NCBI GenBank assembly: GCA_002339325.1
Contig: DDKK01000031.1
Span: forward strand, 22,632 to 86,631
DNA length: 64,000 nucleotides
Source: Nitrospiraceae bacterium UBA2600
GTDB taxonomy: Bacteria; Nitrospirota; Thermodesulfovibrionia; Thermodesulfovibrionales; Thermodesulfovibrionaceae
Direction of reading: 5' to 3'
The notes beneath the pieces are model-generated. The model had not been told where the DNA came from. It searched no databases and saw only the letters and a list, made by a program, of their open reading frames with translations. The position numbers and the translations under genes were made by a program. Shown here piece after piece: positions 1,423 to 62,555 of the stretch. Positions within the stretch are counted from its first letter, which is position 1. Each line of letters begins with the position of its first letter.

Positions 1423-2076
1423 ATGCTGGAACTAATCAAATCCTATATTAGCGATTATGATGCCCTTAAGGAAATTGCTGAAAGATGCCTTACTACTGAA
1501 AGGTGGAATGGCAATGTTCCCCTGATCTTACTTGATGCAGCAATTACATCTGTTGGAGTGAATTATTTTCAAGTAGTTGTTCCAAAGGTAAGAGAGTTTG
1601 AAAAAGAGTTTATAAAAACCGGAAAAGTCAATTCTCTGTCAAACTTAGCCAATTTTAACTATGAAGAAGCCTTTCATATATGGAAAAACAGGCGTTCATG
1701 GCAGGTTGCGAAGGAAATTGCTAAGTATCTGTCAACTCTATCGAACAACGATAAAGAAGCCTTAAGAACGTGGGCTAAAAGCTCATCTCTTTCAAACTGG
1801 AAATCCGACCCTATTGGAAAAATAAAGGGAGTTGGGTTGATAACCTATCAATACTTAAGAATGATGGGAGGCATTGACACAGTCATGCCCGATAAAATTG
1901 TAAAGAGAGTCATAAACGAAATCCTCATAAAAGCAGGCGAAAAACCTTTATATGATGATATAGCGTTCATTCATAAAGTTGAAACCCTTGCTAAACAGAC
2001 AGGTTACCGTGAGGTAGAGCTATGCTTTATGACTTGGTTTAAAGATAATCCAGAAAGAATCTCAGAAATGCCTTAA
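1423..2076 (+). CDS. Hypothetical protein with HhH-GPD DNA glycosylase-like motif
   Basis: 217-aa ORF with GGAG SD; IKGVGLIT...VMPDKIVKRV resembles HhH + catalytic Asp. Confidence 0.55.
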   Translation: MLELIKSYISDYDALKEIAERCLTTERWNGNVPLILLDAAITSVGVNYFQVVVPKVREFEKEFIKTGKVNSLSNLANFNYEEAFHIWKNRRSWQVAKEIAKYLSTLSNNDKEALRTWAKSSSLSNWKSDPIGKIKGVGLITYQYLRMMGGIDTVMPDKIVKRVINEILIKAGEKPLYDDIAFIHKVETLAKQTGYREVELCFMTWFKDNPERISEMP

Positions 2077-4565
2077 CCTTTAACTCTCTTACCAACAATG
2101 TAAGCTTGGCCAAGAGATATGCAGGCATCGTTGCTGGGAACATTTACGTGATAAAGAGGTTTTATGCCAAGTTTTTTTAAGGCTTTTATGGTTTCCCTTA
2201 TCAAATAGGCATTCTGGAACACTCCTCCACTTAAGCCAACTGCATCAAAGCCAAATTTTGCTCTGAAATGCTCTGTGAGTTCGAGGATTATTTTTATAAT
2301 TGTGTTGTGAAATTTCCATGAAATAAAGGAGATTCCTCGCTTACGCTCAGAATGACAAATCGACTTGGCTTCAGATTTTAAAAAATCCCTTACAATCTCT
2401 CTAATCATTAGCTTGTAGTCTATAACTAAAGCCTCTCCCTCATTGGAATTCACTAATTCAAAGGGGTAGCAGTCCCTCTCAGAGAACTCCCTACCCTCCT
2501 CTATTAGACTTTCAAGGGCTACTGCTGCCTCTGCTTCATGGGTGTTGTAATGGCATAATCCAATCAGGGAAGAGACACCATCAAAAAGTCTTCCCATACC
2601 TGAAGAAAGAGGGCTAAATTGAGAAAGTCTCTTTATTTTAAGTATTTGCCTGATTTTTTCTTCTGAAACTACTTTATAAAGAGGCAGTCTCATTATCAAA
2701 TCCATATCCTCACCGAAAGCATCGTCAATCAAAGAAAGAGCTATTCTTGAACATTCTTTTATAGCATTCTCACCTCCTGGTAAGCTGACAGGTCTTAGAT
2801 GGGCAAGTCTCTGAAAATCCTTCAAAGTGCAGTATAAAAACTCACTTCCCCAAATTGTGCCGTCTGTTCCGTATCCTGTGCCATCAAAGGCAATTCCGAA
2901 AAGCTCATCCAGTCCATGCTCTGCCATTAAGGATGCAATATGACAGTAATGATGCTGAAGAGCAAAAGAAGGAATGCCTCTTTTTTCAGCATACTCCTTT
3001 GCCCAAGCTGTTGAAAAATACAAGGGATGAAGGTCATGCCCAACTGCCGATGGCTCTGTTCGATAAACGGCTTTGAGATTGTTTAAAACCTCCTCATAAA
3101 ACTCTATTGTTTCAAGATTTTCCATATCACCTATGTGCTGGCTCATTATGGCAGAGTCTGCTTTTATAAGCGTAAAAGTATTCTTCAAGTCAGCACCAGC
3201 ACCCATAACATCGGGCAACTCCTCTTTCAATTGTATAGCCTTCGGAACAAATCCCCTTGCCCTTCTTATGAAATAGATTTTGCCTTCAAGCTCTCTTACA
3301 ACAGAGTCATCAACTCTCATAAATATATCTCTGTTGTGTATGAGAAAAGCATCTGCCACATTGCTGAGTTTTTCAAAGGCCTCTTCATTCTTTGTAATAA
3401 TAGGCTCTTCAGAGATGTTTCCACTTGTCATAACAAGGGCATCAAAGTTAGGCTGAAGACTGAAGTCCGAGGTCCGAAGGGCTGAGTTATCCTTGTAAGG
3501 CTGCGTAGTATCTGTTTTACTGTCATTCCGAGGAGCGTTAGCGACGAGGAATCCCCTCCTACCCTCCTCTGTCATTCCGAGGAGTGAAAACGACGAGGAA
3601 TCTCCTACTTTAGCTGGATAATAAAACAGCAAATAATGAAGAGGTGTGTACGGCAACATAAAGCCAAGATAGGCATTCTTAGGTGCTAATGCCTCTGGTA
3701 AATTGCACTGGGGCTTTTTTCTTAATAGCACTATAGGACGCATTGGAGAAGTAAGAATTTTTCTTTCTTCATCGCTTACAAGGCAGAATTTTTCAATAGC
3801 CTCAACGGAGGGAGACATGAGTGCAAAGGGTTTATTGCTTCTTTTTTTTCTCTTCCGCAATTCTTTAACTGCCTCTTCATTTCTTGCATCACAGCAGAGA
3901 TGAAAACCTCCGAGTCCTCTTATTGCCAAAATCTTGCCTTCTTTTATGAGCCTAATGGCTTCTGGAATTGGATTTTCAATTTCAGTTAAAGCACTACCTT
4001 CCTTTATAAAAAGCCTTACCTGAGGACCACAAACTGGGCATGCATTGGGCTGAGCATGAAATCTTCTGTTACTTGGGTCTTTGTATTCACTGAGGCATTC
4101 AGGACACATATTAAACACAGCCATTGTTGTATTAGGTCTGTCATAGGGAACTTTCATGGTAATTGTGTATCGGGGACCGCAGTTTGTGCAGTTTATGAAG
4201 GGATAGAGATATCTTCTGTCTGTAGGGGTAAAAAGCTCTCTCAGACAGTCTTCACATATTGACACATCCTCTGAAACATGTGTAAACCCTGCTTCATCAA
4301 TGCTTTTAATAATTTCGAAGGTTTTATAATTATTCGGTGGAAGTTCAGTTTTTTCAATTGAGTAAATCTTAGCAAGCGGAGGAGGATTGTTTTGAAGTTT
4401 ACTAATAAACTCTTCAACCCTTTCACCCTCAACCTCAATTGTCAAACCTTTTGAGGTATTTGTAACAAATCCTTTTAAATTAAGATTTTGTGCAAGGTTG
4501 TAAACAAATGGTCTGAAGCCTACTCCCTGAACAACTCCCTTAACTTCAATATGAAGGCGTTTCAT
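2073..4565 (-). CDS. hypF: [NiFe]-hydrogenase maturation carbamoyltransferase HypF, with two repeat-derived in-frame insertions
   Basis: GVVQGVGFRPF acylphosphatase, CxxC zinc fingers, GLGGFHL, RRARG, GDLHP, QHHYCH, FDGTGYG, SGGVFQN, NDACISLGQ. Confidence 0.97.
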   Translation of the reverse strand: MKRLHIEVKGVVQGVGFRPFVYNLAQNLNLKGFVTNTSKGLTIEVEGERVEEFISKLQNNPPPLAKIYSIEKTELPPNNYKTFEIIKSIDEAGFTHVSEDVSICEDCLRELFTPTDRRYLYPFINCTNCGPRYTITMKVPYDRPNTTMAVFNMCPECLSEYKDPSNRRFHAQPNACPVCGPQVRLFIKEGSALTEIENPIPEAIRLIKEGKILAIRGLGGFHLCCDARNEEAVKELRKRKKRSNKPFALMSPSVEAIEKFCLVSDEERKILTSPMRPIVLLRKKPQCNLPEALAPKNAYLGFMLPYTPLHYLLFYYPAKVGDSSSFSLLGMTEEGRRGFLVANAPRNDSKTDTTQPYKDNSALRTSDFSLQPNFDALVMTSGNISEEPIITKNEEAFEKLSNVADAFLIHNRDIFMRVDDSVVRELEGKIYFIRRARGFVPKAIQLKEELPDVMGAGADLKNTFTLIKADSAIMSQHIGDMENLETIEFYEEVLNNLKAVYRTEPSAVGHDLHPLYFSTAWAKEYAEKRGIPSFALQHHYCHIASLMAEHGLDELFGIAFDGTGYGTDGTIWGSEFLYCTLKDFQRLAHLRPVSLPGGENAIKECSRIALSLIDDAFGEDMDLIMRLPLYKVVSEEKIRQILKIKRLSQFSPLSSGMGRLFDGVSSLIGLCHYNTHEAEAAVALESLIEEGREFSERDCYPFELVNSNEGEALVIDYKLMIREIVRDFLKSEAKSICHSERKRGISFISWKFHNTIIKIILELTEHFRAKFGFDAVGLSGGVFQNAYLIRETIKALKKLGIKPLYHVNVPSNDACISLGQAYIVGKRVKG
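2326..2360 (-). repeat. Dispersed palindromic element copy inside hypF (reads ICHSERKRGIS)
   Basis: Minus strand ATTTGTCATTCTGAGC-GTAAGCGAG-GAATCTCCTT; first 16 and last 10 nt are identical to 62274-62309. Confidence 0.85.
3451..3486. repeat. Degenerate heptamer tandem repeat inside hypF
   Basis: GGCTGAA-GACTGAA-GTCCGAG-GTCCGAA-G-GGCTGAG. Confidence 0.6.
3521..3606 (+). repeat. Two direct copies (49-bp period) of the TGTCATTC...GAATC element inside hypF
   Basis: 3521-3553 TGTCATTCCGAGGAGCGTTAGCGACGAGGAATC; 3570-3602 TGTCATTCCGAGGAGTGAAAACGACGAGGAATC. Confidence 0.9.
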
Positions 4566-60701: not shown

Positions 60702-62203
60702 AAGCTGTTTTAGCAAAAGAGGAAAAAAACTGGATAAACAGCGTGATTAAGGAAGAAGAGATAGAGAAATATATGGAAGACGGAAGGGACTTCATAAATG
60801 ATGAGGAAATCTGGGAGAAACTAAAGCAAAATCAGAATCCAGAACCATCCCGAATATGGGATATACTTCAGAAATCCCTTTCAATTGAAACACTTCTTCC
60901 CGATGAGACAGCAGCTTTGCTTAATCTTAAAGACCCGGAACTCTGGCAAGAGGTTTTTGATGTAGCAGCAAAGGTAAAGAAAAAGGTTTATGACAACAGA
61001 ATTGTCACATTCGCACCTCTTTACTGCGGAAATCTATGTGTGAATAACTGCGTTTACTGTGGTTTCAGAAGAGACAATCATGTGATTAAAAGAAAGGTGC
61101 TAACTCTTGAAGAAGTAAAAAGAGAGGCAGAGGTGCTTGCTGGTGAGATAGGACATAAAAGACTTATTGTTGTTTACGGTGAGCATCCTGCAACTGGAGC
61201 TCATTACATAAGAGACACGATAGAAACTATTTACTCTGTCAAGGTAATGACAAAGAACGGATACGGTCAGATAAGAAGGGTTAATGTGAATGCCGCACCA
61301 ATGAGCATAGATGAGTTAAAGATGCTTAAGGAAGTTGGAATCGGCACATATCAGGTTTTTCAGGAGACTTATCATCATGACACATACGCAAAGCTTCATC
61401 CTAAGGGAACAATTAAACATCACTATCAGTGGAGGCTTTACTGTCATCACAGAGCACTTGAAGCGGGAGTTGATGATGTGGCATTGGGAGTGCTTTTTGG
61501 ACTTTATGACTGGAGATTTGAGGTTATGGGGTTACTTTATCATGCAAGGGAGCTTGAGAAACGGTTCGGAATTGGTCCACATACAATTTCTTTCCCACGG
61601 CTTGAGCCTGCAGCAAACACTCCCTTTGTGCAGGAGACAAGATATAAAGTTTCCGATGAGGATTTCAAAAAAATCATTGCAGTGATAAGACTTTCTGTTC
61701 CCTACACTGGTATGATTCTTACTGCCCGAGAGCCTGCTCACATAAGAAGAGAAATCATTGCTTCAGGAATGATAACCCAGACAGATGCATCCACAAAAAT
61801 AGGAATAGGAGCATACTCTGACAGATACACAGAACAGGAGCTTGAGCGACAGCAGTTTGAGATTGGAGACTCCCGTAGCCTTGACGAAGTAATCAGAGAA
61901 CTTGCAGAGATGGGCTTTATTACAAGCTTTTGCACAGCCGGTTATAGATGTGGAAGAACAGGAGATAGAATAATGAGTTTGCTTAAATCAGGAAAGGAGG
62001 CGATATTTTGTAAACTCAATGCAGTGCTTACTTTCAGAGAATGGCTTGATGACTTTGCCTCGGAACAGACAAAGGAAGCAGGAGAGAAAGTTATTCAGAA
62101 GGAGCTTGACGAGTTAAAGGCAAAAGTGCCTCATAAAGTTTACAACAAGCTCATTGAATACTACGGGAGGATTAAAAATGGAGAAAGAGACATATATTTC
62201 TAA
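60698..62203 (+). CDS. hydG: [FeFe]-hydrogenase maturase HydG
   Basis: FAPLYCGNLCVNNCVYCGF, FQETYH, GPHTISFPR, SFCTAGYRCGRTG. Confidence 0.96.
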   Translation: MKAVLAKEEKNWINSVIKEEEIEKYMEDGRDFINDEEIWEKLKQNQNPEPSRIWDILQKSLSIETLLPDETAALLNLKDPELWQEVFDVAAKVKKKVYDNRIVTFAPLYCGNLCVNNCVYCGFRRDNHVIKRKVLTLEEVKREAEVLAGEIGHKRLIVVYGEHPATGAHYIRDTIETIYSVKVMTKNGYGQIRRVNVNAAPMSIDELKMLKEVGIGTYQVFQETYHHDTYAKLHPKGTIKHHYQWRLYCHHRALEAGVDDVALGVLFGLYDWRFEVMGLLYHARELEKRFGIGPHTISFPRLEPAANTPFVQETRYKVSDEDFKKIIAVIRLSVPYTGMILTAREPAHIRREIIASGMITQTDASTKIGIGAYSDRYTEQELERQQFEIGDSRSLDEVIRELAEMGFITSFCTAGYRCGRTGDRIMSLLKSGKEAIFCKLNAVLTFREWLDDFASEQTKEAGEKVIQKELDELKAKVPHKVYNKLIEYYGRIKNGERDIYF

Positions 62204-62555
62204 GGAGACTCTTCATTCTGAGCCATCCCCTTTCTGTCACTCTGAGCCTTCCTTCAGTCATTCTGAACCATCCATTTGTCATTCTGAGCCGAAGGCTAAG
62301 AATCTCCTTCTTGAATTAAACAAAATAGCAGAGTTTGTCAAAGAAAAATACAATACCCACATTTGGTTTGTAGAGATAATGGGAAAGAGACACTCATACA
62401 TAGCCGGACACAAAGAAGACTCATTTCTTCCACCAGAGTTAATTTATATCAATGACAGATACGCTGCTGTCTCCAATGAATGGGAGAGAATCACCGAGAA
62501 AGATGAAATCATATCAACCATAAAAATGCTGCTTTCAAAGGAGACAATCCCATGA
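62178..62555 (+). CDS. Hypothetical 125-aa protein with N-terminal (C)HSEP repeat array
   Basis: GGAGG SD at 62166, ATG 62178; overlaps hydG end and hydF start (ATGA). Confidence 0.7.
   Translation: MEKETYISKETLHSEPSPFCHSEPSFSHSEPSICHSEPKAKNLLLELNKIAEFVKEKYNTHIWFVEIMGKRHSYIAGHKEDSFLPPELIYINDRYAAVSNEWERITEKDEIISTIKMLLSKETIP
62211..62309 (+). repeat. Tandem array of TGTCATTCTGAGCC units ending in one complete element
   Basis: Units at 62211, 62235, 62256, 62277 (periods 24/21/21); the last continues GAAGGCTAAGAATCTCCTT. Confidence 0.9.

What the first reader, a model, noticed from the sequence alone, without database searches (positions are those of the whole stretch)
3451..3610. About 50-aa repeat-built insertion in the HypF YrdC-like domain
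Seen: between PYTPLHYLL and LVMTSGN, which are normally only a few residues apart (recalled), lies GDSSSFSLLGMTEEGRRGFLVANAPRNDSK...SALRTSDFSLQP. It is encoded antisense by two 33-bp element copies plus a heptamer array, with frame preserved. Inference: a tolerated insertion hotspot in a maturase that is still under selection.
Basis: partly seen in the sequence, partly recalled or inferred. Interest (0 to 1): 0.65.

Follow-up and report, generated by a model that had tools for sequence, protein, structure and literature searches.

The report
Hairpin repeats translated inside HypF
The hydrogenase-maturation enzyme HypF of a Thermodesulfovibrio bacterium carries about 52 extra amino acids, built from two copies of a small hairpin-forming DNA repeat found across the genome; the enzyme is still under purifying selection, so this is tolerated selfish DNA in a floppy loop, a known kind of event, at a site that is filled repeatedly in related species.

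Summary
hypF (window 2073-4565, minus strand, 830 aa) has an extra segment at aa 320-371 (window 3453-3608). It lies between PYTPLHYLLFYYP and PNFDALVMTSGN.

The segment holds two 32-nt palindromic units on the plus strand, a 17-nt spacer, about 32 nt found nowhere else in the genome, and four or five degenerate heptamers. The frame is kept and there are no stops.

The unit (T-GTC-ATTCC-GA-[variable hairpin]-GA-GGAAT-C) is a dispersed family of about 45 copies in this 1.9-Mb genome, mostly between genes. It also lies in frame at a second hypF site and in CdhD-family and NuoC genes.

Across 110 Nitrospirota hypF loci this loop has a median of 18 aa and a maximum of 63 (this window and T. yellowstonii DSM 11347). 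Different units and other repeat families fill it in different lineages.

The rest of HypF is under purifying selection (dN/dS about 0.13). AlphaFold2 predicts the insert as disordered on an intact HypF fold.

The units resemble CGTC/TGTC-tagged REPs (Rickettsia RPE-4/6, Neisseria dRS3/NTS). In seven genus genomes and a near-identical strain, unit arrays flank a roughly 96-aa GIY-YIG gene, like the published NTS-ssnA-NTS layout.

Verdict: a new member of a known kind, of moderate interest.

The parts
2073..4565 (-). hypF coding sequence (830 aa), the carbamoyltransferase of [NiFe]-hydrogenase maturation and the host gene of the insertions
   Evidence: ORF list. Five Pfam HypF domains. PDB 3VTH at E 9e-202. 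Foldseek TM-score 0.93 to 3VTH.
3453..3608 (-). The whole extra segment, aa 320-371 (VGDSSSFSLLGMTEEGRRGFLVANAPRNDSKTDTTQPYKDNSALRTSDFSLQ). It lies in the loop between helix 308-315 and strand 377-381 of the YrdC-like domain.
   Evidence: Alignment to 3VTH. Ortholog loops. pLDDT below 50 for aa 320-368.
3569..3606 (+). Hairpin unit copy 2, type A: CT-GTCATTCCGAGGAGTGAAAACGACGAGGAATC-TCCT (core 3571-3602). Read antisense as GDSSSFSLLGMT.
   Evidence: Twelve type-A copies in the genome.
3554..3570 (+). 17-nt C/T-rich spacer (CCCTCCTACCCTCCTCT) between the two units. It is made of the usual 3' tail and 5' lead of units.
   Evidence: A similar unit-spacer-unit arrangement occurs at C22:2155-2222, 88% identical over 68 nt. 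Flank consensus.
3520..3556 (+). Hairpin unit copy 1, type A: CT-GTCATTCCGAGGAGCGTTAGCGACGAGGAATC-CCC (core 3522-3553). Read antisense in another frame as GFLVANAPRNDS. In the Kuro-1 / T. islandicus alleles a different unit type lies at this position.
   Evidence: Unit swap shown.
3488..3519 (+). Segment with no other copy in the genome (encodes KTDTTQPYKDN). It is shared by the four T. yellowstonii-group alleles. Origin unknown; it may be a decayed older insertion.
   Evidence: BLAST of the insert against the whole genome finds only the units. Alignment of four alleles.
3453..3487 (+). Degenerate heptamer array: CTGAAGA CTGAAGT CCGAGGT CCGAAGG GCTGAGT.
   Evidence: Pattern search gives 1 match against 0 in 100 shuffles. 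Tandem Repeats Finder is negative. Cleaner arrays at the same place in L012, L014 and L006.
2331..2363 (-). Second hypF insertion: a short unit (T-GTCATTCTGAGCGTAAGCGAGGAATC-TCC) in sense orientation. It adds 11 aa (SICHSERKRGI, aa 735-745) in the Kae1-like domain.
   Evidence: An 11-residue gap in 3VTH at exactly this place. Present in L001, L002, L004 and L006, decayed in L010, L011 and L013, and absent in the other orthologs.

Best explanation
The extra 52 residues are selfish repeat DNA that landed in a structurally permissive surface loop of HypF and is translated with it.

The unit is a short ssDNA-type hairpin. It has a TGTC tag, a 5-bp outer stem ATTCC/GGAAT, a tandem G-A/A-G mismatch, an exchangeable inner stem-loop, and a C followed by a pyrimidine-rich tail.

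It belongs to the CGTC/TGTC-tagged REP superfamily. That superfamily includes Rickettsia RPE-4/6 and the Neisseria dRS3/NTS repeats.

In this genus the units cluster around a 96-98-aa single-domain GIY-YIG nuclease gene. This is the same layout as the published NTS-ssnA-NTS pairs. That nuclease is the most likely agent that binds, cuts and spreads the units (inferred).

Units are open in 4 or 5 of 6 reading frames. Insertions whose total length is a multiple of three can therefore survive where the protein tolerates a floppy loop. Selection removes the rest.

Once a unit is in the loop, more units are added next to it, swapped for other unit types, slipped (the heptamers) or decayed. Whole insert haplotypes also move between strains by homologous recombination. 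The result is a length-hypervariable loop on an otherwise conserved, working enzyme.

Shown: the anatomy, the family, the hotspot, purifying selection on the gene body, predicted disorder, and the linkage to the GIY-YIG gene.

Inferred: translation of the insert, neutrality, and the role of the nuclease.
For: Anatomy and family:
- Two units plus heptamers.
- 20 strict and about 45 loose copies in the genome, none in the reversed-pattern control, and mostly in stretches with no long ORF.
- Different inner stems between the same outer arms: GCGTAAGC, CACCC..GGGTG, CCTGCC..GGCAGG, GGGTGG..CCACCC.

Other in-frame copies:
- A second hypF site.
- Inside the CdhD domain of a 467-aa protein, and in the N-terminal extension of NuoC.
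- Three units in one 2.5-kb gene against 0.06 expected (Poisson P = 3e-5).

Hotspot.

Translation:
- In all 110 loci where both flanking motifs were found, they lie in one frame with no stop between them. This holds across at least 10 independent length changes; (1/3)^10 = 2e-5.

Selection and structure:
- dN/dS 0.12-0.15.
- Invariant residues kept.
- pLDDT below 50 only in the insert and one linker.
- TM-score 0.93 to 3VTH.

Relation to known repeats:
- R. conorii CGTC-1 peptides VIPAKAGI and DSRFRGND imply GTCATTCC...GGAATC.
- The NTS is CGTCATTCCCGCGMAVGCGGGAATCYRG. The C after the palindrome is critical for binding and the three nt before it for cutting.
- CGTC-tagged ATTGC-type units lie beside the ATTCC type in G017.

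Nuclease link:
- A small GIY-YIG gene in 7 of 21 genus genomes, flanked on both sides by unit arrays in 5 of 6 loci read.
- In G013 it lies inside the densest cluster. In G017, 7 of 8 copies surround it.
- Copy number is higher where the gene is present (Mann-Whitney P = 0.003).
- A strain whose hypF region differs by 1 nt in 3093 carries the gene amid type-A units on the same 759-kb contig.
Against: - There is no RNA or protein evidence that the insert is translated.
- The window's own assembly has no small GIY-YIG gene. Neither does the complete T. yellowstonii genome G002, which has 58 units. The units there may be relics, or may be moved by something else.
- The units do not match the degenerate SRM search string of the Ssn paper.
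- I could not show that the Thermodesulfovibrio GIY-YIG protein belongs to cd10448. Its nearest solved relatives are UPF0213 proteins at E about 4e-4.
- The insert is not decaying like neutral DNA within allele pairs: 3/165 and 2/156 nt differ, against 21-30% at synonymous sites. This needs recombination or constraint to explain.
- No target-site duplication or empty-site allele was found for the main insertion.
Confidence: 0.82

Rival explanations
1. The insert has been co-opted. The peptide, or the DNA/RNA hairpins inside the gene, now does something useful for HypF or its expression and is kept by selection.
For: Within two allele pairs the insert is among the least diverged parts of hypF. 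WIN-G002 differs at 3/165 nt, and only 2.1% of equal-size windows are as low. Kuro-1 and ERR14790953 differ at 2/156 nt, and no other window is as low. The segment KTDTTQPYKDNSALR is shared by four lineages.
Against: The loop is hypervariable in length and content across the genus, and some species have only 8-10 residues there. The insert is predicted to be disordered. The hypF alleles are evident mosaics, and the insert occurs as two haplotypes (H1 and H2) combined with different N- and C-terminal halves. This explains the low within-haplotype divergence without any function.
Confidence: 0.08
2. The segment arose locally by slippage and tandem duplication of loop codons, not by arrival of a mobile repeat.
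For: The heptamer array and the head-to-tail arrangement of the two units 49 nt apart look like local duplication. Head-to-tail dimers are unusual for REP families.
Against: The same 32-nt unit occurs at 10 other places in the genome at 87-100% identity. The two hypF units differ in their loops and are read in different frames. Orthologs carry other unit types, and one carries the opposite orientation. Slippage explains the heptamers at most.
Confidence: 0.05
3. The insert is removed before or during translation (intron, intein or ribosomal bypass), so the mature protein lacks it.
For: None directly. Stable hairpins inside a coding region could in principle stall ribosomes.
Against: No Rfam family matches at E up to 1. 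52 aa is too short for an intein. Every length variant seen keeps the frame and lacks stops, which would not be required if the segment were removed.
Confidence: 0.02
4. The units are moved by an IS200/IS605-type tyrosine transposase (RAYT), as classical GTAG REPs are.
For: They are short hairpins that often lie in inverted pairs and clusters.
Against: Y1_Tnp is absent from the window's genome and from 19 of 21 genus genomes. These include the three richest in units (127, 79 and 58 copies). The two Y1 genes found have no units within 1.5 kb. The tag is TGTC, not GTAG.
Confidence: 0.03

Closest known systems
Rickettsia palindromic elements (RPE; Ogata et al. 2000 and 2002, as summarised in PMC3733652 and PMC10969869), especially the short RPE-4 and RPE-6, which equal CGTC-4 and CGTC-1
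   Same: Short palindromic repeats inserted in frame in housekeeping genes and translated as extra surface peptides. The outer arms are identical to R. conorii CGTC-1 (GTCATTCC...GGAATC, from peptides VIPAKAGI and DSRFRGND). Clusters encoding 43-82 aa are reported there too.
   Different: A different phylum (Nitrospirota). The stem carries a tandem G-A mismatch and an exchangeable inner hairpin 8-40 nt long. Most copies here are intergenic.
CGTC/TGTC-tagged REPs (Di Nocera et al. 2013, PMC3733652)
   Same: TGTC tag, a stem that begins with A-T and T-A pairs, a 4-nt loop in the short forms, a short pyrimidine tail, intragenic copies, and no dedicated tyrosine transposase.
   Different: Stems are longer than 8-9 bp and interrupted. 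Clusters are frequent (G013). Nitrospirota is not among the phyla listed in that paper. The two hypF units are head-to-tail, not head-to-head.
NTS / Ssn-related motifs and their GIY-YIG ssDNA nucleases (Ssn family, cd10448; Nat Commun 2025, PMC11893778)
   Same: An HGTC tag, palindrome and following C. These are the positions that matter for cutting and binding by SsnA. Repeat arrays lie on both sides of a single-domain GIY-YIG gene of about 95 aa. Copy number is associated with presence of the gene.
   Different: The units fail the paper's degenerate SRM pattern. cd10448 membership and nuclease activity of the Thermodesulfovibrio protein are untested. That paper does not deal with repeats translated inside genes.
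Intragenic REPs at the same site in orthologous genes (recB of Xanthomonas campestris and X. oryzae, PMC3733652)
   Same: Different REPs at about the same site of one gene in related species.
   Different: Here the site is filled across a whole order, by several unrelated repeat families, with up to 5-6 units.

Membership tests
HypF carbamoyltransferase | Four-domain architecture: acylphosphatase, two zinc-finger motifs, a YrdC-like domain and a Kae1-like domain | tested here: met
   All Pfam domains score above their cut-offs. 3VTH at E 9e-202. TM-score 0.93. All invariant Cys, His and Asp columns are kept.
CGTC/TGTC-tagged REP (Di Nocera 2013) | Terminal tetranucleotide CGTC (variants TGTC, CCTC) at one end of the palindrome | tested here: met
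   T precedes GTC in 12 of 12 type-A copies. True CGTC-tagged units lie beside them in G017.
CGTC/TGTC-tagged REP (Di Nocera 2013) | Stem of 8-9 bp beginning with complementary A-T pairs, and a loop of 4-5 nt | tested here: inconclusive
   The short form ATTCTGAGC-GTAA-GCGAGGAAT has 9 stem positions and a 4-nt loop, but two of those positions are G-A mismatches. Type A and the 35-59-nt forms exceed the range.
CGTC/TGTC-tagged REP (Di Nocera 2013) | No associated tyrosine transposase | tested here: met
   Y1_Tnp is absent in 19 of 21 genus genomes and is not next to units in the other two.
Ssn-related motif (SRM) / NTS-Ssn pair | Match to the degenerate SRM string HGTCWYN(0-2)YYVSBRHN(0-5)WNVSBRGN(0-2)RNCYNB | tested here: not met
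   None of the hypF units, or of types C and ATTGC, matches. The NTS control matches. One match in the genome against 0-4 in shuffles.
Ssn-related motif (SRM) / NTS-Ssn pair | Repeats flank a single-domain GIY-YIG gene of about 95 aa on both sides | tested here: met
   Met in the genus: L116, L117, L118, L119, L121, G013 and the near-identical strain L122. Not met in the window's own assembly, where the only GIY-YIG match is a 598-aa ORF, presumably UvrC.
Ssn-related motif (SRM) / NTS-Ssn pair | The nuclease belongs to cd10448 and cuts the repeat as ssDNA, one strand only | not testable with these tools
   No CDD library or SsnA sequence was on hand. Pfam GIY-YIG scores 60-66 bits. There are 7999 hits with E up to 1e-5 among the 8000 candidates scored, the top hits about 96 aa long and named 'GIY-YIG nuclease family protein'. 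PDB holds only UPF0213 proteins at E 4e-4.
Rickettsia palindromic elements | Palindromic repeat inserted in frame in protein genes, absent from orthologs, at surface positions | tested here: met
   This concerns how the element behaves. The RPE families themselves are defined in Rickettsia.
GTAG REP / REPIN-RAYT | GTAG tag and a RAYT gene | tested here: not met
   The tag is TGTC. There is no RAYT gene.
Intron / intein | Matches to intron RNA families, or intein splicing blocks and a size of at least 130 aa | tested here: not met
   No Rfam match. The insert is 52 aa of repeat-derived sequence.

The most novel reading that the evidence does not exclude
Intragenic units are not just passengers. 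As ssDNA hairpins recognised by an Ssn-type nuclease, they would set the ends of recombination tracts, so that hypF alleles are shuffled in cassettes that break at the insert.

Two of about five visible junctions among T. yellowstonii-group alleles fall at the insert borders, between aa 296 and 320 and between aa 376 and 392.

HypF loops would then be a 'safe harbour' shared across phyla for such hairpin repeats. Other agents of this scan report in-frame repeats in hypF in several other phyla.
Probability: 0.12. Interest if true: 0.6.

Novelty: new member of a known kind. Interest (0 to 1): 0.38.

Why it matters
It gives a well-documented case outside Rickettsia of hairpin repeats living inside an essential maturation enzyme.

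Several features make it useful:
- It occurs in a cultivated type strain, T. yellowstonii DSM 11347, in which translation and tolerance can be tested directly.
- One protein loop absorbs from 0 to 5-6 units, and in one cluster of alleles the enzyme carries about 140 extra residues in all, while it stays under purifying selection.
- It connects three literatures that describe the same kind of element under different names: RPE, CGTC-tagged REP, and NTS/SRM with Ssn nucleases.
- It suggests that the Ssn paper's search pattern misses whole families, namely those with a G-A-interrupted stem.

For annotation, it warns that about 6% of this HypF is repeat-derived and should be masked in alignments and trees.

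Tried and rejected
- Rfam scan of 3300-3800 at E up to 1: nothing.
- Tandem Repeats Finder on the region: nothing, so the heptamers are too degenerate for it.
- RAYT / Y1 transposase as mover: rejected.
- Target-site duplication: none recognisable at either hypF site, and no closely related empty-site allele exists for the main site.
Genome-wide this is not so, because most copies lie where no long ORF spans them.
- The ORF around C4:54947 looks like an antisense artefact, and the units at C45:34901-34997 lie upstream of a lipoprotein signal peptide. Neither was counted as intragenic.
- Nearest-neighbour folding gives weak energies for type A (z-score 0.4 to 1.3). The case for the hairpin rests on the shared outer arms with varied, self-complementary inner stems, not on energy.
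- The apparent strand bias of units along G013 was not used, because the list is truncated.
- Literature: no paper in the held library describes these Thermodesulfovibrio repeats, or HypF as a recurrent host.
Full report
**1. What is there**

The ORF at window 2073-4565 on the minus strand encodes an 830-aa HypF. It has acylphosphatase, two zf-HYPF, Sua5/YciO/YrdC, HypF_C and HypF_C_2 domains.

The YrdC-type domain covers aa 206-435 against profile positions 2-177, so about 54 residues are extra. Against the solved HypF of Caldanaerobacter (3VTH) the alignment breaks after ...PYTPLHYLLF (aa 314) and resumes at ALVMTSGN (aa 376). The crystal protein has 5 residues where this one has 61.

I place the insert at aa 320-371, window 3453-3608.

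**2. Anatomy of the insert** (read on the plus strand, antisense to hypF)

- 3453-3487: four or five degenerate heptamers (CTGAAGA CTGAAGT CCGAGGT CCGAAGG GCTGAGT). There is one match against none in 100 shuffles. Tandem Repeats Finder does not score the array.
- 3488-3519: 32 nt with no other copy in the genome.
- 3520-3556: unit 1.
- 3554-3570: a C/T-rich spacer.
- 3569-3606: unit 2.

The two units are 41-nt direct repeats, 85% identical, with 32-nt cores GTCATTCCGAGGAG-NNNNNN-CGACGAGGAATC. They are 49 nt apart, so they are read in different frames, as GDSSSFSLLGMT and GFLVANAPRNDS.

By inspection, the unit has no stop in both antisense frames used here and in two sense frames.

**3. The unit is a dispersed family**

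- The strict pattern GTCATTCCGAG-N8-30-GAGGAATC has 20 copies in the 1.9-Mb genome and none in the reversed-pattern control.
- A looser definition gives 55 hits, of which I judge about 45 to be real copies.
- All share T-GTC, a 5-bp outer stem ATTCC/GGAAT, a tandem G-A/A-G mismatch, and a C followed by a TCC-like tail.
- Between these arms lie different self-complementary modules: GCGTAAGC, CCGAAGG, CACCCTCAATGGGTG, and a 37-nt module.
- Most copies lie where no long ORF spans them, often in opposed pairs and clusters. Three contig ends stop in such clusters.
- A few copies lie in frame in real genes: the CdhD domain of a 467-aa corrinoid Fe-S protein, the N-terminal extension of NuoC, and a second hypF site.

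At the second hypF site a short unit in sense orientation adds SICHSERKRGI (aa 735-745). This is exactly where 3VTH has an 11-residue gap. Three units in one 2.5-kb gene compare with 0.06 expected (P = 3e-5).

**4. The loop is a hotspot**

The genus is Thermodesulfovibrio (record titles).

In 20 same-genus genomes the stretch between FYYP and PHF(E/D)ALVMTSGN ranges from 8 to 53 residues. Basal and several other species have short loops with no unit.

Other species carry:
- a 59-nt unit (L007);
- a type-A unit plus a 59-nt unit (L003);
- two type-A units (the window and G002);
- four units, one in the opposite orientation (L005);
- decayed remnants (L004, L006, L010-L014).

On a HypF tree built without the loop, the window pairs with G002, and this pair is sister to L003 plus L007. 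The shared and unshared units therefore require gains, losses or replacements within one small clade.

In metagenome proteins the same loop holds up to five or six units. A third site holds about 100 repeat-derived residues, giving HypFs of 881-920 aa within one cluster at 90% identity.

In 110 Nitrospirota hypF loci the loop has a median of 18 aa and a maximum of 63, the window. Other genera show peptides typical of other repeat families at the same place (PPLxKGGxGGF, RRLKPAAT).

That several unrelated families fill the same loop argues that structural tolerance, not a sequence target, makes the hotspot. Clustering of units next to one another then adds to it.

**5. The enzyme is intact and constrained**

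- dN/dS of the gene outside the insert is 0.12-0.15 in all six comparisons among four alleles.
- All columns that are invariant in 56 HypFs are kept.
- AlphaFold2 with that alignment gives a mean pLDDT of 86.9. Only aa 140-146 and 320-368 fall below 50.
- The model superposes on 3VTH with a TM-score of 0.93.
- The genome has [NiFe]-hydrogenase large-subunit genes.
- The same insert is in T. yellowstonii DSM 11347 (P0124; G002 is a single contig of 2,003,803 bp). From general knowledge, not tested here, this species oxidises H2.

**6. Is the insert translated?**

The indirect argument is strong. In all 110 loci where both flanking motifs were found, they are in one frame with no stop between them. 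This holds across at least ten independent length changes, and (1/3)^10 = 2e-5. If the segment were removed at the RNA level or bypassed, this would not be needed.

No Rfam family matches.

**7. An oddity, and its likely cause**

Within two allele pairs the insert is among the least diverged parts of hypF.

| Pair | Insert differences | Gene body | Equal-size windows as low |
|---|---|---|---|
| Window vs G002 | 3/165 nt | 7.1% | 2.1% |
| Kuro-1 vs ERR14790953 contig | 2/156 nt | 10.1% | none |

Between the pairs, the shared parts differ by 5-9%. Unit 1 is replaced by another unit type at the same position.

Eleven protein alleles of the T. yellowstonii / T. islandicus / Kuro-1 group are clear mosaics:
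- P0127 equals P0123 up to aa 296 and equals P0122 from aa 320 onward.
- P0126 and P0128 differ in the insert haplotype but are nearly identical from about aa 392 to the end.
- P0132 has a foreign C-terminal part that lacks the second insertion.

Recombination of two insert haplotypes among strains therefore explains the low divergence. Constraint is not excluded.

Two of about five junctions lie at the insert borders. That is not significant on its own.

**8. What the units are related to**

Di Nocera et al. (PMC3733652) define CGTC-tagged REPs, with TGTC as a variant. Their features are stems that start with A-T pairs, 4-5-nt loops, a short tail, intragenic copies, and no dedicated transposase. 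They equate R. conorii RPE-6 and RPE-4 and Neisseria dRS3 with these families.

Their supplement lists R. conorii CGTC-1 peptides VIPAKAGI and DSRFRGND. These imply GTCATTCC...GGAATC, the same outer arms as here.

A Y1 transposase is absent from this genome and from 19 of 21 genus genomes.

Notes from other agents of this scan mentioned a small nuclease gene next to similar repeats. I tested that here:
- A 96-98-aa single-domain GIY-YIG gene exists in 7 of 21 genus genomes.
- In 5 of the 6 loci read it has unit arrays on both sides.
- In G013 it lies in the densest cluster. In G017, 7 of 8 units surround it.
- Unit counts are higher in genomes that have the gene (P = 0.003).

The window's assembly has none. 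However, a public assembly whose hypF region differs by 1 nt in 3093 has the gene on the same 759-kb contig, embedded in type-A units. That region is missing from G000.

This layout matches NTS-ssnA-NTS of the Ssn family, which are site-specific ssDNA nucleases of the GIY-YIG superfamily. Their Neisseria target is CGTCATTCCCGCGMAVGCGGGAATCYRG. The three bases before the stem matter for cutting and the C after it for binding (PMC11893778).

The present units share those positions but fail that paper's degenerate SRM string. I could not verify cd10448 membership.

My conclusion on this point is limited. The units work like, and are probably related to, Ssn-related motifs. Membership is not shown.

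**9. Verdict**

The phenomenon is known from Rickettsia RPEs and intragenic REPs. This case is a new member.

What it adds:
- a testable instance in a cultivated type strain;
- a loop that is refilled across a whole order;
- a probable link between translated repeats and Ssn-type nucleases.

Noticed in passing
window 62200-62310 (+): An array of four 5' half-units (CATTCTGAGCC..., GTCACTCTGAGCC..., GTCATTCTGAACC...) ending in one complete short unit. It lies inside a 145-aa open frame (stop to stop; best ORF spanning the array), which sister notes place between hydG and hydF.
   Followed up: partly
G000 C25:13494-13525 and C45:103340-103373: The same unit family lies in frame inside the CdhD domain of a 467-aa corrinoid Fe-S protein (VIPRSTSDEES) and in the N-terminal extension of NuoC (CHSEGAKATEES).
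   Followed up: partly
G000 C7:44-70, C19:46-95, C22:12-142: Three contigs end in clusters of units, so the repeats break this assembly. This may be why the GIY-YIG locus seen in the near-identical strain is missing from G000.
   Followed up: partly
G000 C45:123655-123888: A [NiFe]-hydrogenase large-subunit-like match with one in-frame TGA. It is a possible selenocysteine ([NiFeSe]) enzyme.
   Followed up: no
L118 (G017:C1 around 336 kb): True CGTC-tagged units with ATTGC/GCAAT arms (CGTCATTGCGAGGAGCGTCAGCGACGAAGCAATCC) lie interleaved with ATTCC/GGAAT units around the small GIY-YIG gene. The arm difference is compensatory, G to C paired with C to G.
   Followed up: partly
P0028 cluster (HypF of 881, 915, 919 and 920 aa): A third HypF site, before ITVDYT in the Kae1-like domain, holds 60-100 residues of unit-derived sequence. 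The unit number varies among proteins at least 90% identical.
   Followed up: partly
G001 and G011: These are the only two genus genomes with a Y1 transposase. They show strongly one-sided unit counts (23:3 and 11:1), although both are multi-contig assemblies. This is unexplained.
   Followed up: no
L101 (uncultured Nitrospira sp. MAG): The hypF match region translates with 6 stop codons over the reported coordinates. It is either a pseudogene or a frame shift in the reported match.
   Followed up: no
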